From contig JALGPX010000014.1 in assembly GCA_023515795.1 (NCBI GenBank), positions 186,001-250,000 on the forward strand: a stretch of 64,000 nucleotides of DNA, in the 5' to 3' direction. The stretch comes from Amoeboaphelidium occidentale (taxonomy: Eukaryota). The first letter of the stretch is position 1. The number at the start of each line of letters is the position of its first letter. Positions 1 through 51,844 of the stretch are shown one piece after another. Below the pieces are notes generated by a model. The model had not been told where the DNA came from. It saw only the letters and a program-made list of their open reading frames with translations, and ran no database searches. The translations under genes and the position numbers were made by a program.

Positions 1-899
1 GAAACTTTCTAACTCCCAACTCCACTACTAAATTTAAAGAAGAAGTAGGAATCTTATTAGTAGAATAATAATTCAACATTCTTTCCAACAAAACTCCATA
101 AAACTCCAATAAATCCACATGTTTGTTATTAGAAGCCAAATCTTCATCATCACTTAATAATATAATCTCTTTATACAATTGATCATAATTTATAATTGAA
201 TCTGATGATAAATACAATAATAAACAACTTCTTCTATAATTATCTCTCTTTTGTAGAATATATTGCATTACACTTATCCTATTATTATTATTATTATTGT
301 TATTATTATTATTGTAAGAATGTTTGTTTAGTGTGATTGGTTGAATGTATTCATTAATAAACAATACAATTCTTTCAATACTGTTATTGTTATTGTTATT
401 GTTATTGTTATTGTTATTGTTATAAAAGAGTATTAAATCTACTATAAAATCTTGTGTAGAAATCCTTCTTATAAATTCAGAATACTTTAAATCTTCTTTT
501 AAATATAAATCCATTCCTTCTATTAAATCAAAGTAATCAGAAGGATTCAAAAAAGTACAAGTAATAGTACAAGAAGTAAGGGAAATGTTGTAGAATGTGT
601 TTGTAGTCTTTTTCAAATATTTTATAATTGAATGAGTCATACATTTTCCATTACTTTTTAAAGGTAATAAAATAGATTCTTTAGAATCATTACTGAAGTG
701 TATATTAACTATAGTACTTCCTTCTTCTTCTTCTTCTTTATCTTCTTCCTTTGTTGTTGTTGTAGTTGTTGTAGTTGTTGTTGTAGAAGGATTGTAATAC
801 TTTAATGTCAATTCAATTAGTTCAATTCTTTTTAGTATTTCTTCTATTGAATATTTACAAAGTGGATTCTCTTCTTCTTCTTCTTCTTTTGTTATTGTT

Positions 900-933
<34 letters not shown>

Positions 934-952
934 CTTCTTGTTGCATTGTCAT
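1..952 (-). CDS. Hypothetical low-complexity protein (poly-T/E/N tracts); 3' end runs off the window
   Basis: Hand translation gives an open frame from ATG 952 (MTMQQEETTT...) to base 1 with no stop in very AT-rich DNA. Allelic microsatellite differences seen in the duplicate copy preserve the frame. Confidence 0.6.
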
Positions 953-1001
953 TAACACGTTGTTGTTTGTGGAAAAAGAAAAAATGATTGATTGTGATTC
1001 N

Positions 1002-1309
1002 TTAGAATCATTACTGAAGTGTATATTAACTATAGTACTTCCTTCTTCTTTATCTTTATCTTCTTCCTTTGTTGTTGTTGTAGTTGTTGTAGTTGTTGTA
1101 GAAGGATTGTAATACTTTAATGTCAATTCAATTAGTTCAATTCTTTTTAGTATTTCTTCTATTGAATATTTACAAAGTGGATTCTCTTCTTCTTCTTCTT
1201 CTTTTGTTGTTGTTGTTGTTGTTGTTGTTATTATTGTTGTTTCTTCTTGTTGCATTGTCATTAACACGTTGTTGTTTGTGGAAAAAGAAAAAATGATTGA
1301 TTGTGATTC
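1002..1309. repeat. Allelic duplicate of 681-1000 (overlapping contig ends joined by N at 1001)
   Basis: Near-identical sequence restarts right after the N; differences are confined to the trinucleotide tracts. Confidence 0.9.
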
Positions 1310-1456
1310 CAATAGAAAACACCTTTTCAAGTGGATGAGTCATCATCATCATCATCATCATCATCAACAATAATGATAATAATAATAATTCTATTTAATC
1401 TCAATTAGTATTGGATTAGTACTACTTTTAATATCTACTAATCCTCCTCCTCCTGN

Positions 1457-1621
1457 TGATTGATTGTGATTCCAATAGAAAACACCTTTTCAAGTGGATG
1501 AGTCATCATCATCATCATCATCAACAACAATAATGATAATAATAATAATAATAATTCTATTTAATCTCAATTAGTATTGGATTAGTACTACTTTTAATAT
1601 CTACTAATCCTCCTCCTCCTG
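1457..1621. repeat. Allelic duplicate of 1294-1455 (N at 1456)
   Basis: Same sequence with different (CAT)n/(AAT)n counts. Confidence 0.9.
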
Positions 1622-33145: not shown

Positions 33146-33913
33146 ATGATTCTTACAACAATTATCGCCAGGCTGAGGGATGGGCTTCATTTAACAGCTT
33201 CCATGGACGAAGAAGAGGTCAGCTTTCTTCCTCTGTTTTCATCGTTTTATTTGTAGGCTCGTGATATTTTAGAGTACAAGCAAGTCGCTAAGGATTTGAT
33301 AAAGAATATTGTGCAATCCCATGAGGAAAGTCACTGTTCAGTTGGCTCAGGCGCCTGCGTATTCCAGTAAATAGTGATGAAACCGTAAAGTATTTATTCT
33401 TGTAGTTACATGTTGGACTCTTCCTGTATATATTTGACCCTCTGCGACAAGACTTATCCACAACGATTGGCCTTTTCATATTTAGAGGAGGTCCAGAAGG
33501 AGTTTCAGGAGCAGCACGGGGCTGAGGTATCATCCGCTGCAAGGCCGTACACTTTTGTCAGATTCGACACAAATATCCAAAAGATTAAGAGGCAGTACCA
33601 GAACTCACAGACGTCTCGAAACATTGCGCGACTGAATGAAGACTTACAGGATGTCACTAGAATTATGACCAAGAATATTCAAGATGTCCTGGGAAGGCAG
33701 GACGCACTGAACAGTATCGTTTCATACTACTGCAGCGGAAGCTAATTGTTCTTAGAAATGACGGACATGTCTAGCAAGTTGGCTTCAGATTCAAAGAAAT
33801 ATTTGAAGGGTACTAAAGATCTGAATCTGCAATTACTGTACAGGAAGTACGGCCCGCCTGTGATTGTTATTCTAGTCGTGTTGATTGTTGTTTATGCCAG
33901 ATTCTTCTGGTAA
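33146..33913 (+). CDS. SEC22: Longin R-SNARE Sec22
   Basis: MILTTIIARLRDGL.L.AS, YPQRLAFSYLEE, ARPY.FVRFD, L.DVTRIMTKNI and a C-terminal TM; 3 introns. Confidence 0.92.
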
Positions 33914-34101
33914 AAATCTTACGGGTTGTGAGATGATGCGAGCTTAATAAAGAGGCATTCTGCAATTATCATCATTTATTGACCACTTGTTTAAAATGTA
34001 ACTCAAAGATCAGATATAATTCGTCAGAACACGACTGTAACATCGTGATTTCTGATCTGCCCATCTTTGATAAGCGCTGAAGCAACAATTTTAATTCAGC
34101 A

Positions 34102-34875
34102 ATGAACGAGGATCTATTGCAAGTAGGCTCCCCCTCAGGGTAAGCGTGATAATTCATGACTTCAACTTTTTGTAGGCGGCCTAATATGACACTCGCAGAG
34201 CGAAGGGCAAATCACAATGCAATCGAACGGGCGCGAAGAGAGTCGCTAAATTCAAAATTCTTCGAGTTAGCCAGCTCAATACCATCTCTCAAAGAGGCAC
34301 GAAAGCCATCGAAATCTGTTATTGTGCAGAAGGCGCTGGAATACATTCAGAATTTCAACAAATACGCTCATGCACAAGAGAAGGCACTCAAGGATCTTTA
34401 CGATAGGAACAAGGAGCTCTTACTCGAAGTTAACGAGCTGAGACAGAAACTAGGTTATTCTCCAAAAGATAGTGATTATGGGTCGTCTATTAGTGATCAG
34501 AGGATGGCATCAGAGCAATTTCCTGTAATTCCGTCACAGAATCTCGTTTCAAACTCGCCACTATTAGCATCTTCTCCAAAGCCTTCTCTCATGGGCAGCT
34601 CTCCATTGTTGATTAATACAACTTCTTCTCAAGTGTATGCGCCAGGCGATAGCGCATTGTTTGGAACATCTTGTCCGATTCAGATGCAGAACATGACTTT
34701 GAATGATATAGGCGGATTACCTCTTTCGTACAGTGGCACAACTCATCCAGCATCTTTCCATCTCCCGCGGCATTCAATGAAATTTGGCTCAGTTGATCCC
34801 ATCTTAACTCAGAATGGTTCTGCTGCAGATGAAGATGACAACGACGATATTCTCGATGAAATGCTAATATTTTAA
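34102..34875 (+). CDS. bHLH-leucine zipper transcription factor (Max-like)
   Basis: RRANHNAIERARRESLN..F.EL...IP.L...SK..I..KALEYI followed by a heptad repeat; short first exon and an intron at about 34140-34175. Confidence 0.85.
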
Positions 34876-34904
34876 TAGTAATAGTTAAACGAATAAAGAA
34901 CGAT

Positions 34905-36227
34905 TTATTGCTCTCTTCGATGAACGAATACTTCAGCCAAAGCTTGTAAGTCTTTTGTTTCATTTGATAGTTCATCACAAACACGTATGCCCTCAATTTT
35001 ATGACATCCTGGAGCAGATGGAAAGAATTTCAATTGAACCCGCCGGGACTCCTCTGGTCTAAGTTCTCCCAAAGGCGTATTTGCTTCATCCAAGAACCAT
35101 ATAGTTCCCATTTTCTCCTTCTGTGATATGAGTTTTAAGTTTGCATTCTGCCTGCTCAGATTTTTTACGTCAAAAGTCAGAACGAATGGAACTTCAACCA
35201 CAATGTTTTTAGGACAATCGATGATTTTGATGTCAACTAGTTCAGAAGGAGCTGCTTTCCTTACCAGCTGGTTTGTCTGTAGCCTTCCGATTTCACCCAA
35301 GTTTGATCGCCAAAGTATGTCCAAACGACCTAGATTTGTCGAAGCGATTGCATTAATGGTTGACTGGTCACTTCTCGGTCGTAGTCTAAATAGATACTGT
35401 CGTGTATCTTGCGGCTGCATTGAAACAAAATCCCCAAATACAGACACAGAATCTGCGCCATAATGATTCAAATCTTCGCAAGCAAAGTATTCTGACGGTT
35501 CTAACTTGAGCCTTTCGATAAACATTGGGATTGCCATTTGATTTTGTATTTGTGCCTCAAGATACAAATGACCCGTGCCAACTGAATTGACTTTCGTTCT
35601 GACCGCTAACGGATTCAAAACGTTGAACTTGTAAAATCGTCTAAAAGATCGTTTTTCTTCACCAGAAGAAACATAATTAATTGAGCACACTAATATATGA
35701 GTTCCCAGTTCCCGTATCTCGTGGTTGACCATAAATTCAGCTGTTTGGTTCGCAAGTAACCCATGATGAGATTCTTCTGTAGTGTCATGCAACAGGAATT
35801 TTTGGGTGGTAGTCTGCAGCTCCGCCCTAAAATAGAGGTTCCGCACTCCTGAAGCAGAGTCATTATTTATGCAAATGTAAGCAGAGAACGTTTCACCAAG
35901 GTAAATATTTCCAAAACTGCTCGGTAACAATAACAGATCGCTAAGCGAGAATGTAGACACTTCCAGATCTTCATGCTCTGGTCCTTTGCTTGCCGGTAAA
36001 TCTGAAATGTCCAAGAGGGCGGGTGTGTTTACAGAAGATTTCTTTGTAGACGGTGCTGCTGTAAAATTCGACAGGTTCTTGTCTCGCAGCTTTGCAAAAC
36101 CATCATCCCCTAGAGATAAAGAAGTTCCGGAAACGTCATGAAATATCGCATTTGATGATGCAAAGTTCGGTTTAGAAAGCCTCATGACTTTTAACGACAG
36201 TTGATGCTGTTGGCTATCCGACGACAT
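34905..36227 (-). CDS. TRAPPC13: TRAPP subunit TRAPPC13 (DUF974)
   Basis: LSLKVMRLSKP, LLLP.SFGNIYLGETFS.YI and LGRLDI.WR.N.GE.GRLQT. Confidence 0.92.
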   Translation of the reverse strand: MSSDSQQHQLSLKVMRLSKPNFASSNAIFHDVSGTSLSLGDDGFAKLRDKNLSNFTAAPSTKKSSVNTPALLDISDLPASKGPEHEDLEVSTFSLSDLLLLPSSFGNIYLGETFSAYICINNDSASGVRNLYFRAELQTTTQKFLLHDTTEESHHGLLANQTAEFMVNHEIRELGTHILVCSINYVSSGEEKRSFRRFYKFNVLNPLAVRTKVNSVGTGHLYLEAQIQNQMAIPMFIERLKLEPSEYFACEDLNHYGADSVSVFGDFVSMQPQDTRQYLFRLRPRSDQSTINAIASTNLGRLDILWRSNLGEIGRLQTNQLVRKAAPSELVDIKIIDCPKNIVVEVPFVLTFDVKNLSRQNANLKLISQKEKMGTIWFLDEANTPLGELRPEESRRVQLKFFPSAPGCHKIEGIRVCDELSNETKDLQALAEVFVHRREQ

Positions 36228-36252
36228 TTTTCGGTTACAAGAAAATCTATTG

Positions 36253-36304
36253 TGAATAGAAAAAGCTGCGTCTTTTTATACAGCGGTCATAGATTTTTTG
36301 ACTC
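36253..36304 (-). ncRNA. Candidate Fanzor omegaRNA 3' scaffold
   Basis: Lies between the Fanzor stop and the element end. Hairpins GTCA-loop-TGAC and GCTGY..GCAGC; stems are retained in the allele at 37011-37061 while the loop differs. Confidence 0.5.
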
Positions 36305-36545
36305 AAATTTGCCTACTGAAACTGGGGTGTCTTTCTCCTGTTAAAAAGTAATGAACTGCGATAATAGCCATGTTAATTGCTGCTGATACATCCTTGTGAA
36401 CAATCAGATCGTGTCCAATTGAAGTCTTGCAATCTTTACATTTCCACATCCTAGTTCCTTCGTAGCCGTATTTGTCAAGAGGGTTAAAGCACATTGGGCA
36501 ATTCTAAGAAGTCCAAAATCTCTGAGCAACGACGGGCTAAGTATA
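36303..36545 (-). pseudogene. Fanzor (eukaryotic TnpB) C-terminal remnant: RuvC-II tail, Zn finger, RuvC-III
   Basis: LARRC/(frameshift)FWTS*NCPMC...RMWKCKDC...HKDVSAAINMAII...G.RHPSF matches the TnpB/Fanzor pattern TS..C..C...C..C...RD.NAA.N. In-frame TAG at 36504-36506. Confidence 0.85.
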
Positions 36546-36862
36546 TATATCACTCAATGATTAAACCCTCGTAACATTAACAACTCAGTTCTATTGTCTG
36601 TGAAGTTTTAATCCATCTCTGTGTGCATGTATCACTATCTTGAAGCACCACAACTTAAACAGCAGCAACAACAATGTTCTCCATGATTGCTATGCTCCGT
36701 TCAGGGTGCTGGCTGACTTGTATGAGTTTCTTGTGATCTCTCCTATAGTTGTTCTTCGGGTTCTCATTTTTGAGTGCTGCTGATAGCTTGATTCATGTAG
36801 CAAGCGAAATTTGATTCTTCTGACAGTTATAGTTCGCATGACCAGAATTCTATTCAGTCATN

Positions 36863-37262
36863 ATCCCCTAGAGATAAAGAAGTTCCGGAAACGTCATGAA
36901 ATATCGCATTTGATGATGCAAAGTTCGGTTTAGAAAGCCTCATGACTTTTAACGAGAGTTGATGCTGTTGGCTATCCGACGACATTTTTCGGTTACAAGA
37001 AAATCTATTGTGAATAGAAAAGGCTGCGTCTTTTTATGCAGCGGTCACATTTTTTTGACTCAGACTTGCCTACTGAAACTGGGGTGTCTTTCTCCTGTTA
37101 AAAAGTAATGAACTGCGATAATAGCCATGTTAATTGCTGCTGATAGCTTGATTCATGTAGCAAGCGAAATTTGATTCTTCTGACAGTTATAGTTCGCATG
37201 ACCAGAATTCTATTCAGTCATTCAGTAATTTTATCTCTGCGGATTGGTATTTATACTGGAAA
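36863..37262 (-). mobile_element. Alternate haplotype: duplicate of 36105-36252 plus internally deleted element allele (37011-37262)
   Basis: Same flank as copy A; junction at TGCTGCTGATA removes 397 nt; bounded by Ns at 36862 and 37263. Confidence 0.85.
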
Positions 37263-37263
37263 N

Positions 37264-37660
37264 TTAAACCCTCATAACATTAACAACTCAGTGCTATTGT
37301 CTACGAGATTTTAATCCATCTCTGTGTGATTAGATCACTATCTTGAAGCACCACAACTTAAACAGCAGCAACAACAATGTTCTCAATGATTGCTATGCTC
37401 CGTTCAGAGTGCTGACTTGTGTGAGTATCCTGTGGTCTCTTCTATAGTTGTTCTCCGGGTTCTCCAATTAATCTGCTGCTGATAACTTGATTCTTGAAAC
37501 AAGCGAAATTTGACTCTTCTGACAGTTATAGTTCGCATGACCGGAATTCTATTCAACCATTCAGAAATTTATCTGTGCAAGTTGGTATTCTTACTGGAAA
37601 TAAAAATTCTGTTTTGCCTTGACCGACCGGTCCAGGTTTCGACTAAGTGTTTGGGTGACC
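37264..37660 (-). mobile_element. Diverged paralogous copy of the same element (5' part), different insertion site
   Basis: Aligns by eye with 36561-36861 and 39596-39787 with many substitutions. Ends at GGGTGACC, then has a different flank (MTMR 3' end). Confidence 0.85.
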
Positions 37661-37694
37661 AAAAATTTTCTATTGGACATCAACCAAAGCTTTG

Positions 37695-39549
37695 CTAAAC
37701 TTTCCGCAGAAGCATATTACGCTTGGCAAGAAGATCATCGCGTTCTTGTAACGCTCTGGCAATATTCTCATCCAAGTTCCCAGAAGTCTTATCATTATTT
37801 GCTCCATTATTGTTTGTTATGCATGTTCCAAATGCACTCTTATCCCATGCACAATACATGCTATCCCACAAAAGAATGTCTTTAGGGCTAACAGAGGGTC
37901 TTAAGACATGCTGCCCTGAAGGAGAATACAAACCGCTTGTATAAATAGAAATGTTGTCGTGGACATGATTCCAAACAGATAAAGTTTTCGTTTTAAGTTG
38001 AAGTTCTAGCCGTTCTCTTTCGCAATTACCAAGAAATGTTCCAAACTGGCAATTCTGAGAGTACTTGTGCAGATCCAACAGAAGCCTTTCATTATACTCA
38101 AACTCACCAGGAAACTGCAACATTAAATTCCGAGTAGACTCTAAAAATTGAAGGAATACTGGAGAAGTTTCTTTTTCTTCCTTAGATCCCGATTTATGTG
38201 AGTGTTGCGCAGCTGAAGAAGAAGTCTTTGGCTTCATTGTCCGAACGTGTCCGCATCTTTCAGAGAATTTGTGGCCAAACGAAAGCCATTCTTTTTCTAT
38301 AAGAATCTGAAACCCCTTGAGAGTTCTGTAAAATGGATCCAAACATATAGATGCTAAACCACTTAATTGAGCTGTTCTATCCCAACCATCGGAACAGTGA
38401 ATCAAAACATTCTGTCCATTCTCAATTGCTTTCACTATAAGCAATGCAGACTCCATAATATTCCGTATATGTTTAAGCCATCCAGATGAATCTATTCCAG
38501 AGTATAAACGATCCACGCCAGTATCTGGCTGAGAACACACTAAAAGTTAACGTAAACGAAGTTTTGAAATAACCTTCAACCAACTTGTTCAAAGAGTCTC
38601 TCATAACATGAATATTATCTATACCCATAAATAATCTGTCGCAATTTCTATAGTTTTCCAAACTCTCTGTCCCAGCACCCATCGCCCTGTTGGCCATGGC
38701 GTTAGAAACTGGGCGAGCGTCGATAATAAAATTGTGATGATTATCTGAGGAATCATGGTTAGACTCAAATATAGATTCAATAAGTTTCTCATCCTGAATA
38801 CTTCGCTTTGATTTGATACCGACGAGAGGCTGACTAGACCTTGTTATTGATGCACCTGTTTGCCTGTGTAAATATGAAAGTGCCGGCAGACGACCTCTAG
38901 ACCGGAACTTTGCAGCATGATAAAGCACAGCATCACTGATTTTTGTAGGAACAACCAGAATACGAGGATACGTAGGACATAAATTATAGCCAGCATTAAC
39001 ATCAGAGATTCTCCACGCAGATCCATTATCTGAACCAACACCCATCCTTTCGAACTCTGCAAAAGGATCATACAACTCCCAACCGTTAAACTCTGCCGTA
39101 GAATTCGTCTTGGATACATGTCGAAATGAAAATGCATAAGAATTTGTAAGACTGGCGCCCTGATGGTCCAAAGCACGGCTGATCGTCTCGTAAACGGCTT
39201 GAGCATCGGCAGCAGAGGATACCAATAATCGGAAGAACGTAAAATCTCTGCAATTAAGAACAATAGAATAATACGATAAGGAATTGGAGTTGTCTGTAAT
39301 AACATTCGCAGCAACAGAATTTCTTTTGAGACTTGCCACATTCGAGTAAGGAACCCAAATTTCGTAAGGCAATCCTTCCGCATTAGCCACATACCGAATT
39401 ATAAGATCGTTAACAGTCAAGTGTAAAGAAGCTTTGTGATCGTTGGCGGCATTGATCACAGTCTTGCCATTAGACGCTGCCCCATTCGAAGGCGCCTGAA
39501 TATTCCACGTATTCGGTCGCCAGTTGAGCAAGACATCCTCCACCTTCAA
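37695..39549 (-). CDS. YMR1: Myotubularin PI3P phosphatase (Ymr1/MTMR); first exon lost at the gap
   Basis: HCSDGWDRT catalytic motif, FRSRGRLPALSY, IDARP..NA.AN and NIHVMR.SL; intron 38540-38573. Confidence 0.93.
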
Positions 39550-39595
39550 AAGTTAGGCCGATACTTTCGTGAATGAAGTCGAACTTTTGAAATTN

Positions 39596-39787
39596 GCTGA
39601 TAGCTTGATTCATGTAGCAAGCGAAATTTGATTCTTCTGACAGTTATAGTTCGCATGACCAGAATTCTATTCAGTCATTCAGTAATTTTATCTCTGCGGA
39701 TTGGTATTTATACTGGAAATAAAAATTGATTTTAGCCCTTACCAACCGGTGACCGGTCCAGGTTTCGACTAAGCGTTTAGGGTGACC
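39596..39787 (-). mobile_element. 5' end of element copy A/B, with ACCGGTGACCGGT palindrome and terminal GGTGACC
   Basis: Identical overlap with 36779-36861 and 37139-37262; followed by the repeat of the left flank. Confidence 0.85.
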
Positions 39788-39817
39788 AAGAAAATCTATT
39801 GCGGTTTGAAAGAAACA

Positions 39818-40830
39818 TCATTGACCAACTTCAGTAGTTTCATCCCTCATGAGCATGTTTACTAATCTTTCAATAGCTTCTATGCAGTTTTCGTCCGTTT
39901 CGCTGAGGTGCAACTCTCTTATGATAGGATAAACCTTCTTCTTTCTCATGTATTCTCTACCTTCGCGTGTCATTGTAAGCAAGATCAGGATATCGACCAA
40001 ATCATTTCTGATTTTTGGTGATACTTCTCTAGTCTTATCAGACTCCAGGAACTGCAGCTCGTCAGGCATTCCATCCATGTCTTCAGCTGATAGATCTTCC
40101 GGCCCAGCTAGAGGCAGTAATACATGCACAAGCAAAGGAATCCTCTCATTAATGATTTCGATGTGCTTTTCTGTAGCTAACATGCAATTCTTTATCACGC
40201 TAACAACTCCAAAGCGCCTTATTGGTGACGAACTTTTCATATCGACAAGCAATAAACCAATAGGATAATCGAACTTCTCCGACATAAAGAACTCTCTTGC
40301 TTTCAGGCTATTTAGCGTAAGATTGCTAAACACGTTTGCCAAGTAATCAAACGAAGCCTTCTCGTTCAGTGTCTTGGGGCTGATAAAAGCCGAGATGATT
40401 TGGATTAGGAGCATGCCACTATCTGCTAATAAGATGCATACTTCAGGCGAAGACGTGATGTTGCTGAGAAGAATGCACGCTTCATCTGCAAACGGAGACT
40501 TGGGCATCAAGATCATAGAGCAAATAATGTCCAGCAAGCCAATATCCACAAAATCTTTCAGTTGTTCTACGGTAAGCAGTGCAGTTGCGTTAATGAGAGC
40601 CTTGATGGCTCCTTGCCCAATATCATTTCTAGCACACGCCTTTCTCAAGGCTGCAAGCATGTCGCGGTCATTCACAATGATGTTTGCGAATTCTGCTGAT
40701 TTGGATACGCCAACAATGCAGTCAATGGAGCCCTTACGAACCTAATCATTACTTTGCGCGAAAAGTAACGACATACCTCAGGCTTTGGATCATCTAAAAG
40801 ATCGAGTAGTTCAATCAAAGCTTCCTTCAT
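39818..40830 (-). CDS. HGH1: eEF2 chaperone Hgh1/FAM203 (ARM repeats)
   Basis: DYLANVFSNL, RR.GV.S.IKNC, LLPLAGPE, LQFL..DK.RE and R.KKVYPIIRELH; intron at about 40742-40776. Confidence 0.92.
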
Positions 40831-40853
40831 CTATTGCAGGAAAAAATGAATTT

Positions 40854-42896
40854 CTATTGACCTTTAACTCTACCTTGATTATCATTCACGGCATTAGATG
40901 GTGCATCACTGACAGTGTCTGCCTTTTCATTCATGTCTCCATTGTTCTTGTTTCTCATTAAAGACTGTGATCCTCTTTCCATAGTCCCTTCGCTATCTTG
41001 TTCCAAACGCTTGAGGGCAGCCTCACGCTCCATTTGGATGTCTTTGGTTTTCTTATTGTAGACTTCCAACAAATCGGAAAGTATACTTCGAAGCTTATCA
41101 AGATCTTCCTTTTCTTCTGGTTGCTGATTTGCAACCATCTTATCGCTGGCTTTCATCAACTGTCTGTGTAGTGATGATAAATATCTCTCAATATCTACAT
41201 CCTTCTTCTCTTTTTTATCGGGTCTCCAGCTGGAAAATATCTTGGAAAACCCTTTTAACCCGCTTTCTTTTTTCTTAGATGCACTTTCAAGGTCAGCATC
41301 TGAAGGTGCAGTAGTGATCTCGTCAATAAACTTTTTCATTCTTCCGATGTTATTCTGTACCAAATGATTCAGCTGAGCCATATAAGGCTCCTTCTTTCCA
41401 TCAAAAGGAGTCATGTTTGCCAACTGCTGGATAGTTTTAGAGATTAACGTTAACGTTCTGGCATTTCTGGGATTTGGAGGTTCTCCGTCATTGGATAGAC
41501 CAAACAACTGAGGGCCTAGACAATAAATAAGCCAAGTGATCATTTACCTAAAATTGCAGCATTGAAAAATCTCAAGAAAACAAAAGCAGTAACAACGGTG
41601 TATGGGACAACTTTGTCTGTTGGAAACTTTTCTGATGCTTCCTTTCGCAAAACTGAGAAGACCTTCTTTAATGGAGCTGGACATTTCGAGGCAGAATTAA
41701 GGATTCTATCCATTGCCCATTTGATGTAAGCTTCCAAAACAGTGAAATTTTCCTCAACACTATCAGTCTTTTCTAATCTCGTTGGGTCCAATTCACAAGG
41801 CCTATTCTGAACCAGAATTTCTGTGATAAACTGTTGAAGAACCTGTTTCAGATATCCCATACCAACTAATTTCATGTATTGATCTATAGCCTTGCTTCCA
41901 AGAGAATTGTGTCTGAAAATAGTGTTTGCGTCGGCGGTAGCCCTTATTTCACTCGCAGATATTCCACACAAAAATCTAGGAGCCTGACCTGCAAAATGAC
42001 TGATGGTGACCAAATTCTTAGCAACTTCTTCTCTTTCCTCTGTATTTCTACCTAGAGCCTGTGCTACTCTGAACTTTTCATCCAAAATCAGTTCAAGCAA
42101 TTTCGAGTAATTGCTCAACGGCAGAATATACTCCTCGTTATAAAGATACTTGGCTCTGATCACGCCCATTACACCACAATTAGAAGACATCAAAGGAGCG
42201 CATTTCGTGTGACAACAGGCACCACAAGAACATTTCATTCCAGAGTGGTTGATGCCCCACAAAAGATTGCGACAATGATGACAGGTTTGAGGAGTCGTGA
42301 ACAAGAATGGCTGAAACTCGTGGCTTTTATCAGCCTTCTTATCTTCTCCATATTCTTCTGAAGAAGCAGATGCTTGCAGAGTGTACCAGGTTTCATGGTA
42401 CTTACTGTCTTGATCAAGTGCTACTCTCGGAATCACAACCTGACCCATCAATCTATCTTTTATCAATGACTTGACCCACAATTCCACTATATTGATCAAT
42501 TAAACTTTGACCTCATGCAACTTACATACAACTTCTTTGAACTTTTCATTCAGATCAACCTCAAATTCGTCATCAAACCATGGAGTTTTAGATCTTGCAA
42601 CAACCTTGGTTTTCTTAAGAAAAAACGTTTCAGTAGTCTTTTCAGTAGACGATCCCCTATTTCTCCCTAGCGTTGCAGCCTTTTCAGGAGGAGCAAGCAA
42701 GCTGTTCTGTGAGCTTGAAGAATTTCTCCTGGCTGTTCCAGGATCAATATCAGCAATGATCTTTAACACAACATAAGAGTCACATTCTTCATCTCTGTTG
42801 ATGTTCTTTGCCTCCAAGATCTTTATCAATAAACCTTCACTATTAGCCTTTTATCTTGTGAAACTTACGGTGATCTTTCCTCAAAGCCTTGGCCAT
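40854..42896 (-). CDS. C2 + C1 domain RasGAP (GAP1-family-like)
   Basis: C2 (IKILEAKN..P.FDD.F), C1 (H.F...F..P..C.HC..LLWG..GMKC.C..CH.KC), and RasGAP FR.NSL, FLRFF.AAIL.P, RTLTLISK.IQ.LAN; 3 introns. Confidence 0.9.
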
Positions 42897-49674: not shown

Positions 49675-50368
49675 GCCCGATGGACTCTTTTAAGAGGACA
49701 GAGGGTGCGTGGAACTCTGTTCACATTTTTCAGGGGTACGAATGGCGTGATTCTATTGGCTGATTTTGTGATTGGCGTTCAACTTATAGGTTTCGAATAG
49801 ATATCACCTTTCTCATATGAAAAGTATATCTGTTACATCCTTAGATAGATCAATAAGTGACTTCTGCTCTTCATATTAAACAATTATCTTTCGTCTTAGC
49901 GTTTCAAGTAGCGCGGCGTGAAGGACGCAGAAAAAACTGAGCAAAATTTGACGGAGTTTGAGATTATTTACATTTTTAAGTTACTGCTGATATCAAATCG
50001 TCCGTGTTCTCTTCAAGGTATTCACATGCTGAAACAATTTCGTGCATAGTACACTTTTCCATCATCCAACAAAGGAACACCTGATAGAGAACCCTCTTTA
50101 TTTGCTCTCCCCAAATACTTAACTTTCTGTGCACTTTAAGTTTACACTGAATCGTCACCTGATTTTCCAGTCATGATCAGTTAACTCTGATACGCTCGAA
50201 TGGATGATGATCGCTCCGTAACAATCATTAAAAACGTGCTTTAGCAGCTACTACAGGTATGATCATAAGGAAAAATCAATAAGTAGTAGTAAAGCAGGCG
50301 TGCCTGAAGCGTTACATTGAAATCCTTTCAAAGGTTAATGTTGACAGNNNNNNNNNNNNNNNNNNNNN

Positions 50369-50487
50369 TTAAAAACGTGCTTTAGCAGCTACTACAGGTA
50401 TGATCATAAGGAAAATCAATAAGTAGTAGTAAAGCAGGCGTGCCTGAAGCGTTACATTGAAATCCTTTCAAAGGTTAATGTTGACAG
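50369..50487. repeat. Duplicate of 50228-50347 across an N gap (contig overlap)
   Basis: Same sequence on both sides of the N run, with one A-tract length difference. Confidence 0.85.
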
Positions 50488-51498: not shown

Positions 51499-51844
51499 GC
51501 TGCTGAAGAAGGAAGAGTAATTAAACCAAAATGTGTTGATCTTCAAACGCAGGCGTACTGTTAATTGATTTGGTAGTGTTAAACGATAGATAATAAACGA
51601 AGTTAATAATTTGGTTAGCTACATTCCATGTGCCTCAAATAAGACAATGCGAGAGCGTGGCACTGAAAGAGTGATAAATACAAGTCAAGCAAGGCTGAAG
51701 AATCAATCTTTCCTTGTTGCAGGTCTGTTGTAATAACCGCAGTATCATTGTCGCATGATGAAACTAGAGAACCGGTGTCTTAGTCAGCCAACCAGCCAAC
51801 TTCTAGTCGCAGCAAAACTTTCTATTGCAAATGAAAATTTGAAA

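What the first reader, a model, noticed from the sequence alone, without database searches (positions are those of the whole stretch)
36239..39801. Fanzor (RNA-guided endonuclease) transposon family in a compact basal-fungus-like genome
Seen: minus-strand remnant FWTS*NCPMC...CKDC...HKDVSAAINM inside a repeat present as two alleles and one paralogue; the reconstructed element is about 720 bp. Known: TnpB/Fanzor proteins end with RuvC-II, a CxxC-CxxC finger and a RuvC-III RDxNAAxN motif, and non-autonomous derivatives keep their ends. Inference: an intact parent Fanzor, possibly an undescribed family, may exist elsewhere in this genome or in relatives.
Basis: partly seen in the sequence, partly recalled or inferred. 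Interest (0 to 1): 0.9.

Follow-up and report, generated by a model that had tools for sequence, protein, structure and literature searches.

The report
Dead Fanzor1 transposon remnant, new family
A broken mobile element of about 720 bases carrying the tail end of a Fanzor (RNA-guided DNA-cutting) gene sits in several copies in what is likely an aphelid, an algal parasite related to fungi; it is likely an uncatalogued family of a known kind, and no intact parent gene was found.

Summary
Confirmed. 36306-36536 (-) encodes the last 77 residues of a Fanzor1: Pfam PF07282 E 3e-5; 83% identical to the C-terminus of an Amoeboaphelidium occidentale gene model; full-length relatives (610-1300 aa) fold best onto fungal Fanzor1 (Z 17-18). 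This copy is dead: catalytic Glu lost, in-frame stop, upstream domains deleted. The 3.5-kb layout is an assembly tangle: 37264-39594 is another locus. The real element is 717 bp between two identical 15-bp repeats; another strain holds the empty site with one repeat, so it is a polymorphic insertion with target duplication. No long inverted repeats; flanks share an AATA(G) motif, recalling the unclassified Mucor MCi-2 Fanzor elements. Copies keeping the Glu exist in DNA and spliced-RNA contigs, but no full-length parent was found. Fanzors are already catalogued in this species (84 table rows in Yoon 2023); this family was not seen among 75 rows viewed. Two distant relatives carry a likely FEN1/XPG-like N-terminal domain (weak support). 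Verdict: new, divergent Fanzor1 family; mobilising enzyme unknown.

The parts
36238..36252 (.). Direct repeat, copy 1 (CAAGAAAATCTATTG); host target sequence, 10 bp upstream of the TRAPPC13 start codon
   Evidence: Identical to 39787-39801; a contig of run X3 joins 36252 straight to the homologue of 39802 onward, so the empty site has one copy
36253..36302 (-). Right end of the element, non-coding; predicted 3' part of an omega-RNA, with a hairpin at 36265-36284
   Evidence: Read-depth step begins at 36252-36260 in 4 of 4 runs; hairpin in the MFE folds but no significant z-score; omega-RNA role inferred from position by analogy with SpuFz1
36303..36536 (-). Fanzor1 C-terminal remnant: degenerate RuvC-II (Glu lost), in-frame TAG, CxxC-CxxC finger, intact RuvC-III Asp, native stop
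   Evidence: family profile iE 5e-20 at 36300-36524; 63/76 identical to P0030
36537..36861 (-). Internal and left part of the element; no detectable similarity to Fanzor proteins
   Evidence: No profile or tblastn match to 31 family proteins in this stretch; a 130-bp X1 contig at single-copy depth covers 36675-36804
36863..37262 (-). Version B: same TRAPPC13 flank, consensus-type right end, 397-bp internal deletion (36389-36785) at an 11-bp microhomology; second allele or assembly chimera
   Evidence: the unique X1 contig carries A-type letters at 36280, 36290, 36306, 36308 and the B-type letter at 36198
37264..37675 (-). Left part of a paralogous copy, 85% identical, inserted behind a myotubularin gene at another locus
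   Evidence: X2 and X4 contigs also run from this end into the myotubularin gene (records 15 and 28)
37676..39594 (-). Myotubularin-related gene; a different locus scaffolded into the element
   Evidence: PF06602; X1 record 7 (17,364 bp) and X2 record 15 (14,385 bp) cover this stretch and run on past 39594 into sequence that is not 39596-42000
39596..39786 (-). Left end of the TRAPPC13 copy; 39596-39678 repeats 36779-36861 exactly (assembly overlap)
   Evidence: 83 bp at 100%; X1 record 8 covers 39744-42000 with 0 differences
39787..39801 (.). Direct repeat, copy 2
   Evidence: X2 record 16 begins to match at 39787
34905..36227 (-). Flanking gene TRAPPC13
   Evidence: PF06159, PF23647, PF23643; exact 440-aa protein in NCBI nr
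39818..40741 (-). Flanking gene with DUF383/DUF384 (HGH1-like, name recalled)
   Evidence: stop at 39818-39820

Best explanation
This is a dead, internally deleted copy of a multi-copy mobile element that carries the tail of a Fanzor1 gene and duplicated 9-15 bp of its target, and it was likely copied in by an enzyme supplied from elsewhere in the genome. Shown: the Fanzor1 tail, its inactivation, the filled and empty alleles, the duplication, the lack of long inverted repeats. Inferred: the enzyme nicks at a short AT-rich motif (AATA[G]) that ends up next to the right end, nicks the other strand 9-15 nt away, and the element is joined through 2-3 nt microhomologies at both ends, as in the unclassified MCi-2 Fanzor elements of Mucor. 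Inferred: the conserved right end is an omega-RNA gene, so such copies would act as 'ghost' guide donors for an intact Fanzor, whose usual job would be to cut empty sites and drive copy-back. Identity as a Fanzor1 derivative about 0.95; this insertion route about 0.5.
For: Protein: (best PDB hit Parasitella Fanzor1 E 7e-10). Empty site: X3 record 21, 189 and 133 letters on either side. Multi-copy: single X1 unitigs at depth 805, 540 and 431 against 105 for unique DNA. No long TIR: best inverted match 9 bp, reached by 72 of 1000 shuffles. Motif: all 4 element-end repeats in the window match CAATAGA-N5/6-TTG, which occurs only twice more (one inside the element, one at 51827); 5 further right-end flanks from runs X1, X2, X3, X4, X5 read, after the end's CAA, ATAG, AATAG, AATAA, AATAT and (variant end) TTAT, so the motif shifts by 0-2 nt against the end. 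Precedent: MCi-2, no TIRs, 11-12-bp TSDs of pattern ATAATTNNNN(N), fuzzy 5' ends (PMC3627910 section 12). Ghost loci and 88-90-nt omega-RNA in Spizellomyces (PMC10432273 section 7); 3'-only copies that stop matching at 36335-36341, 83-89 nt from the end.
Against: Only one filled/empty pair. The other flanks are 30-letter loose ends from different strains, unpaired, and the three left-end contigs of X4 are a consensus at 0.57 agreement. A-run length can change by slippage. The right end does not fold better than shuffles (z 0.45 to -1.71) and matches no Rfam family. No transposase, HUH or recombinase gene was seen in 38 window ORFs. The same junction fits a 9-bp TSD with 3-bp termini equally well.
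Confidence: 0.5

Rival explanations
1. Same dead Fanzor1 derivative, but moved by an ordinary cut-and-paste DDE transposase (MuDR- or P-like): the element runs TTG...CAA (36250-39789), makes a 9-10-bp TSD, and prefers CAA-N9/10-TTG targets whose flanks its 3-bp termini restore, which makes the repeat look 15 bp long.
For: The junction parses exactly so (723 bp); the paralogue has CAA-N10-TTG at its left end; 5 of 5 further right ends keep TTG at the boundary. Mucoralean Fanzor1 elements with 9-bp TSDs are filed as MuDR; the P element restores a 3+8+3 target with its termini (PMC2577343 passages).
Against: No TIR beyond 3-9 bp, whereas the MuDR-type Fanzor elements carry MuDR-like TIRs; the distal TTG is not at a fixed distance in the other right flanks; the TAGA motif shifts register.
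Confidence: 0.33
2. The family moves itself without a classical transposase: the intact Fanzor, possibly with a fused FEN1/XPG-like flap nuclease, opens or cuts sites resembling the start of its guide, and host repair copies the element in.
For: Insertion flanks share the bases that would be the guide seed; the 15-bp repeat equals the 14-15-nt native guide of SpuFz1 and the 14-17-nt cut distance of GtFz1; 2 of 9 long relatives have an N-terminal domain whose 2-sequence profile hits ExoIX (E 0.022) and FEN-1 (E 0.78), and the top Foldseek rows are Exo1/FEN/XPG (best E 0.008).
Against: Flanks share only 4-7 nt, below the 10-nt minimum guide reported for SpuFz1; the N-terminal model is poor (pLDDT 48) and the wide VIA search listed no FEN1-family chain; 7 of 9 long relatives lack the domain; nothing shows the aphelid parent has it.
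Confidence: 0.1
3. The peptide is some other zinc ribbon, or the whole feature is an assembly artefact.
For: In NCBIfam three transposase zinc-ribbon models (E 4e-4 to 2.5e-3) outscore TnpB (E 7e-3); three Ns and a misplaced contig lie in the region.
Against: Those models cover only residues 11-42; TnpB models cover 2-58 and the relatives align over 2-76 with RuvC-II, RuvC-III and upstream RuvC-I. A 34-kb unique contig runs 85 bp into the right end and a 9.9-kb one into the left end.
Confidence: 0.03

Closest known systems
Fanzor1 of fungi: Parasitella parasitica Fz1 (PDB 9cf0/9cf1) and Spizellomyces punctatus Fz1 (PDB 8gkh)
   Same: Best sequence-profile (E 7e-10, 0.004) and structure matches (Z 17.9, rmsd 4.2, 329 aligned; Z 16.9, rmsd 8.3, 419 aligned); alternative Glu six residues before the zinc finger, Gly at canonical RuvC-II, long REC region.
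   Different: 9-17% identity over the fold; RuvC-I is DPG in only 10 of 23 relatives; RuvC-III reads V-N/H-K/R-D; SPu-1 has 30-33-bp TIRs and TA TSDs, this element has neither; this copy keeps only the last 77 codons.
Ghost Spu-1 elements (Saito 2023, PMC10432273)
   Same: Short multi-copy derivative (about 550 nt there, 717 here) that keeps both ends and the region between stop codon and right end.
   Different: Ghosts lack the ORF and have IRs, and their omega-RNA was tested; here a coding tail remains, there are no IRs, and the RNA is untested.
MCi-2 Fanzor1 elements of Mucor circinelloides (Bao & Jurka 2013, PMC3627910)
   Same: No recognisable TIRs; long TSD that begins with a fixed AT-rich motif followed by variable bases; fuzzy 5' end; unclassified.
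   Different: Motif ATAATT and 11-12 bp there, CAATAGA/AATA and 9-15 bp here; MCi-2 copies are 7-9 kb with intact Fanzor and in one subfamily a partial Crypton recombinase; protein kinship with MCi-2 was not tested.
CRe-1,2,3 Helitron2-type Fanzor1 elements of Chlamydomonas (PMC3627910)
   Same: Long TSDs (7-19 bp), internal deletions, excess of 3' ends.
   Different: No Helitron ends or TTTT target identified here; not tested against Helitron sequences.
Other Fanzor families of Amoeboaphelidium occidentale (Yoon 2023, PMC10711439, Tables S2-S3)
   Same: Same likely host; 84 rows.
   Different: None of the 75 rows viewed shows this family's C-terminus; KAI3655706 is not in the table; rows are cut at 400 residues.

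Membership tests
TnpB/Fanzor superfamily | C-terminal CxxC...CxxC finger between RuvC-II and RuvC-III | tested here: met
   Present in the window peptide; PF07282 E 3.3e-5
TnpB/Fanzor superfamily | RuvC-III catalytic Asp | tested here: met
   HKDVSAAIN; Asp invariant in 27 of 27 rows
Fanzor (family level) | Alternative Glu six residues before the first Cys, Gly/Pro at canonical RuvC-II | tested here: met
   Glu and Gly invariant in 23 of 23 relatives; present in P0030 and in X3/X4 loose ends; criterion from PMC10711439 section 22 and PMC10530073 passages
Fanzor (this copy) | Complete D-E-D triad in an open frame | tested here: not met
   Glu replaced, TAG before the finger, RuvC-I absent
Fanzor (family level) | RuvC-I DPG motif | tested here: inconclusive
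   DPG 10, DLG 8, DFG 2, DAG 1, DMG 1, truncated 1 of 23
Fanzor1 rather than Fanzor2 | Large REC-bearing protein with Fanzor1 fold | tested here: met
   Model of relative P0052 (820 aa, pLDDT 72): top 7 Foldseek rows are Fanzor1; Z 17.9/16.9 for PpFz1/SpuFz1 against 9.8 for mimivirus Fanzor2 and 9.2-9.7 for TnpB. Tested on a relative, not on an aphelid parent
Fanzor1 rather than Fanzor2 | Phylogenetic placement among reference Fanzor1a-d / Fanzor2 | not tested
   The tree holds only the relatives found here; window + P0030 form a clade (99/99), deeper forks are weak
Fanzor / OMEGA system | omega-RNA transcribed from the right end into the flank | tested here: inconclusive
   Position and conservation fit; fold not above shuffles; no Rfam hit; contigs cannot show RNA ends
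Fanzor / OMEGA system | RNA-guided, TAM-dependent DNA cleavage | not testable with these tools
   Needs biochemistry with an intact protein
Mobile element | Filled and empty alleles with target duplication; dispersed copies | tested here: met
   X3 empty site; depth and distinct flanks
MuDR-type Fanzor1 elements (ROr-4, PBl-3, MCi-4) | 9-bp TSD | tested here: inconclusive
   One junction allows 9 to 15 bp
MuDR-type Fanzor1 elements (ROr-4, PBl-3, MCi-4) | MuDR-like TIRs | tested here: not met
   Best inverted matches reached by 43 and 72 of 1000 shuffles
MCi-2-like elements | No TIRs, patterned long TSD | tested here: inconclusive
   No TIRs met; pattern seen in 2 window loci and 5 unpaired flanks; TSD proven at one locus
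Helitron2 / Replitron / Crypton | HUH or tyrosine-recombinase partner sharing the ends | not testable with these tools
   Genome not held; none among 38 window ORFs

The most novel reading that the evidence does not exclude
A divergent Fanzor1 clade whose elements have no terminal inverted repeats and no separate transposase, insert at sites that echo the first bases of their own guide, and in some members carry a fused FEN1/XPG-like flap nuclease: an RNA-guided eukaryotic element that mobilises itself. The polymorphic filled/empty site here would make that directly testable.
Probability: 0.1. Interest if true: 0.85.

Novelty: new member of a known kind. Interest (0 to 1): 0.42.

Why it matters
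As it stands: one more dead Fanzor1 derivative in a genome already known to be rich in Fanzors, but from a divergent clade that curated profiles barely catch (PF07282 mostly under cut-off) and that yields candidate full-length nucleases of 610-1300 aa. The more valuable part is the junction: how TIR-less Fanzor elements with long patterned duplications (MCi-2, CRe-1) move has been open since 2013, and here is a recent polymorphic insertion with filled and empty alleles. If Fanzor itself, or a fused flap nuclease, takes part in insertion, that would be a first natural role beyond cutting empty sites.

Tried and rejected
Genome not held. Word search with the window peptide among 136-2000-aa proteins: 1 candidate, none significant. 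Search with whole P0030 returned only its host-gene part, P0037. JGI metagenome scans: parent-type motif 0 matches; CPMC-x16-CKDC pattern 21 loci, 0 of 21 related. Viral contigs: 4 scans, only 2 spurious loci. Prokaryote genomes: 2 scans, none. These are exact-pattern scans, so weak evidence of absence. Single-sequence PDB searches with P0016, P0051, P0054 and the whole P0054/P0051 profile found nothing relevant. The idea that the frame upstream (MRTITVRRIKFRLL...) is the Fanzor N-terminus found no support. No RNA holder was listed by record; X4 is taken as RNA only because 4 of its joints skip intron-like pieces. The atlas gave no answer. Wide VIA search of the poor N-terminal model listed no FEN1-family chain. 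Sigma-70 scan is not meaningful in a eukaryote. No earlier findings. Papers: Fanzor + Amoeboaphelidium 0; Fanzor + PIN domain 1 unrelated listing; Fanzor/XPG/FEN1 listing showed no Fanzor paper among 15 rows.
Full report
OBSERVATION. Read through with X it matches Pfam PF07282 (TnpB/Cas12f zinc-finger domain) at E 3.3e-5, best of 6 families. In NCBIfam three transposase zinc ribbons score slightly better but cover only the cysteines; TnpB models cover the flanking motifs too. A phmmer search of 1.84 billion representatives gave 29 hits at E<=0.001. The best is a 48-aa ORF at 88% whose 90% cluster has one other member, KAI3655706.1 of Amoeboaphelidium occidentale; its last 76 aligned residues are 63/76 identical to the window peptide. 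The window's TRAPPC13 protein is in NCBI nr letter for letter. The host is therefore likely A. occidentale or a close relative (inference); genes are dense, standard-code, with 32-42-nt introns.

WHAT PROTEIN. The relatives share RuvC-I (DPG in 10 of 23, DLG in 8), a Gly at the canonical RuvC-II position, a Glu six residues before the first Cys, the CxxC-CxxC finger and the RuvC-III Asp. Glu placement and Gly are the published Fanzor fingerprints (PMC10711439 section 22 part 1; PMC10530073 passages). Their profile hits Parasitella Fanzor1 (E 7e-10), SpuFz1 (0.004), TnpB (0.045) and GtFz1 (0.065) in the PDB. Nine relatives of 610-1300 aa were found among longer proteins, 35-47% identical to the tail. 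A model of one (P0052, pLDDT 72) has Fanzor1 in the top 7 Foldseek rows and Z 17.9 and 16.9 to PpFz1 and SpuFz1 against 9.8 for mimivirus Fanzor2. So the family is a divergent Fanzor1. In the window copy the Glu is gone, a stop follows, and nothing upstream of 36536 resembles any of 31 family proteins: the copy is dead.

TRUE ANATOMY. Single Ns at 36862, 37263 and 39595 split the region. In runs X1 and X2 the contigs that cover 37640-39594 continue for 15 and 12 kb into other sequence, and 39596-39678 repeats 36779-36861 exactly. So 37264-39594 (left part of a paralogous copy plus a myotubularin gene) is another locus placed inside the element. Without it the element is 717 bp between two identical 15-mers, 36238-36252 and 39787-39801. 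A 336-bp contig of X3 joins 36252 directly to the homologue of 39802 onward: an empty allele with one 15-mer. The insertion is thus real, polymorphic and target-duplicating. Version B shares the TRAPPC13 flank and lacks 397 bp between 11-bp repeats; the unique X1 contig has A-type letters in the right end, so B is unverified. Depth is no copy count, but single X1 unitigs at 805, 540 and 431 against 105 for unique DNA point to about 8 or more copies of the 3' part.

ENDS. No long inverted repeat exists (best matches reached by 43 and 72 of 1000 shuffles). The junction has two readings. (a) Termini TTG...CAA, 9-bp TSD, target CAA-N9-TTG restored by the termini, as for the P element (PMC2577343 passages). 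(b) A longer duplication that starts at a fixed motif next to the right end. Both window loci carry CAATAGA-N5/6-TTG at the left end; the motif occurs 6 times in the window, 4 at element ends, 1 inside the element, 1 elsewhere. Five more right-end flanks, read from 30-letter loose ends in X1, X2/X3, X4 and X5, continue after the end's CAA with ATAG, AATAG, AATAA, AATAT and, at a variant end, TTAT. The 0-2-nt shift of the motif and 3-nt overlaps at both junctions favour (b) slightly. The nearest printed case is MCi-2 of Mucor: Fanzor1, no TIRs, 11-12-bp TSDs of pattern ATAATTNNNN(N), unclassified (PMC3627910 section 12); CRe-1-3 also have 7-19-bp TSDs (passages), and Craig speculated that Fanzor contributes to such duplications (PMC10288648 passages). 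One paired junction cannot decide.

OMEGA-RNA. By analogy with SpuFz1 and its ghost loci (PMC10432273 sections 7-8 and passages) the right end is predicted to encode the guide RNA. Conservation peaks over 36276-36340 and 3'-only copies stop at 36335-36341. Folding gives a recurrent hairpin at 36265-36284 but no significant z-score in 7 of 7 folds (best -1.71); Rfam has no match. Untested.

PARENT. Loose ends in X3 and in X4 (spliced, so likely RNA) read L/V-V-D-E-Y-N-T-S-K into NCPMC, and P0030 has the same with about 15 more upstream residues. Less damaged copies therefore exist. No full-length protein close to this tail was found, though contigs break at this repeat and introns are short, so absence is weak evidence. 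An 11.5-kb unique X1 contig carries the tail at 83% and runs 876 bp further. I put an intact parent in this species or its sampled kin at about one half.

PRIOR ART. No paper in the library holds both Fanzor and Amoeboaphelidium in its main text. The supplement of PMC10711439 has 112 Amoeboaphelidium hits, 84 for A. occidentale. I viewed 75 of the 84; none showed this family's tail, KAI3655706 and eight family motifs gave 0 hits while control motifs gave 13-66, and six further motifs hit only unrelated proteins. Rows are cut at 400 residues, so long members could be missed. The two held supplement files of PMC10530073 have no Amoeboaphelidium entry. Other listings were seen as listings only.

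SIDE LEAD. P0051 and P0054 start with a shared 317-aa domain that weakly matches ExoIX and FEN-1 by profile and Exo1/FEN/XPG by Foldseek, on a poor model that the wide VIA search did not place. It is likely a FEN1/XPG-like nuclease. Nothing ties it to the aphelid element.

VERDICT. A real, polymorphic, non-autonomous Fanzor1 derivative of a divergent and apparently uncatalogued family, shown in a tangled assembly. New member of a known kind. Interest 0.42, resting on the unusual junction and the family's full-length members rather than on this dead copy.

Noticed in passing
P0051 (1-317) and P0054 (1-317), relatives: 2 of 9 long relatives begin with a shared domain (34% identical) with SVDxDF and LAYCLxGCDD...GxG motifs; likely FEN1/XPG-like 5' nuclease fused to Fanzor1 (ExoIX E 0.022, Foldseek Exo1 E 0.008; VIA search did not confirm). 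By eye, three A. occidentale rows of Yoon Table S2 (KAI3661525, KAI3662223, KAI3659068) start with similar motifs.
   Followed up: partly
P0046: A 1170-aa relative with tandem degenerate copies of the RuvC region ahead of an intact-looking one.
   Followed up: no
P0030 / KAI3655706.1: Chimeric gene model: a host protein, then a piece of another Fanzor family (same stretch as in KAI3656925), then this family's C-terminus.
   Followed up: yes
window 36228-36252 and 39802-39817: The empty site is a 41-bp gap between the HGH1-like stop and the TRAPPC13 start; the insertion lies 10 bp from the ATG and a guide read from this copy would run into the start codon.
   Followed up: partly
window 36292-36341: Runs X1, X2 and X3 share a locus that keeps only the right end and the last codons, with the same unrelated sequence behind 36341; an old 3'-only copy of omega-RNA size.
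   Followed up: no
window 675-1621 and 50228-50487: Other near-identical duplications split by N (1001, 1456, 50348-50368), the same assembly signature; 1-2300 is rich in TTG/ATT runs.
   Followed up: no
window 33713-33756, 38539-38574, 40739-40775, 41514-41547: Run X4 skips 32-42-nt pieces with GT..AG ends: very short introns.
   Followed up: no
window 33500-42000: Hot-spring, biofilm and sediment metagenomes (X2, X3, X5) hold this organism or close kin; X2 contigs are about 98% identical over 2-2.7 kb, and X3 holds two types.
   Followed up: no
window 36228-36251: X2 and X5 contigs stop matching at the TRAPPC13 ATG and go on for 62-65 unlike letters; their allele at this site differs from both filled and X3-empty forms and is unresolved.
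   Followed up: no
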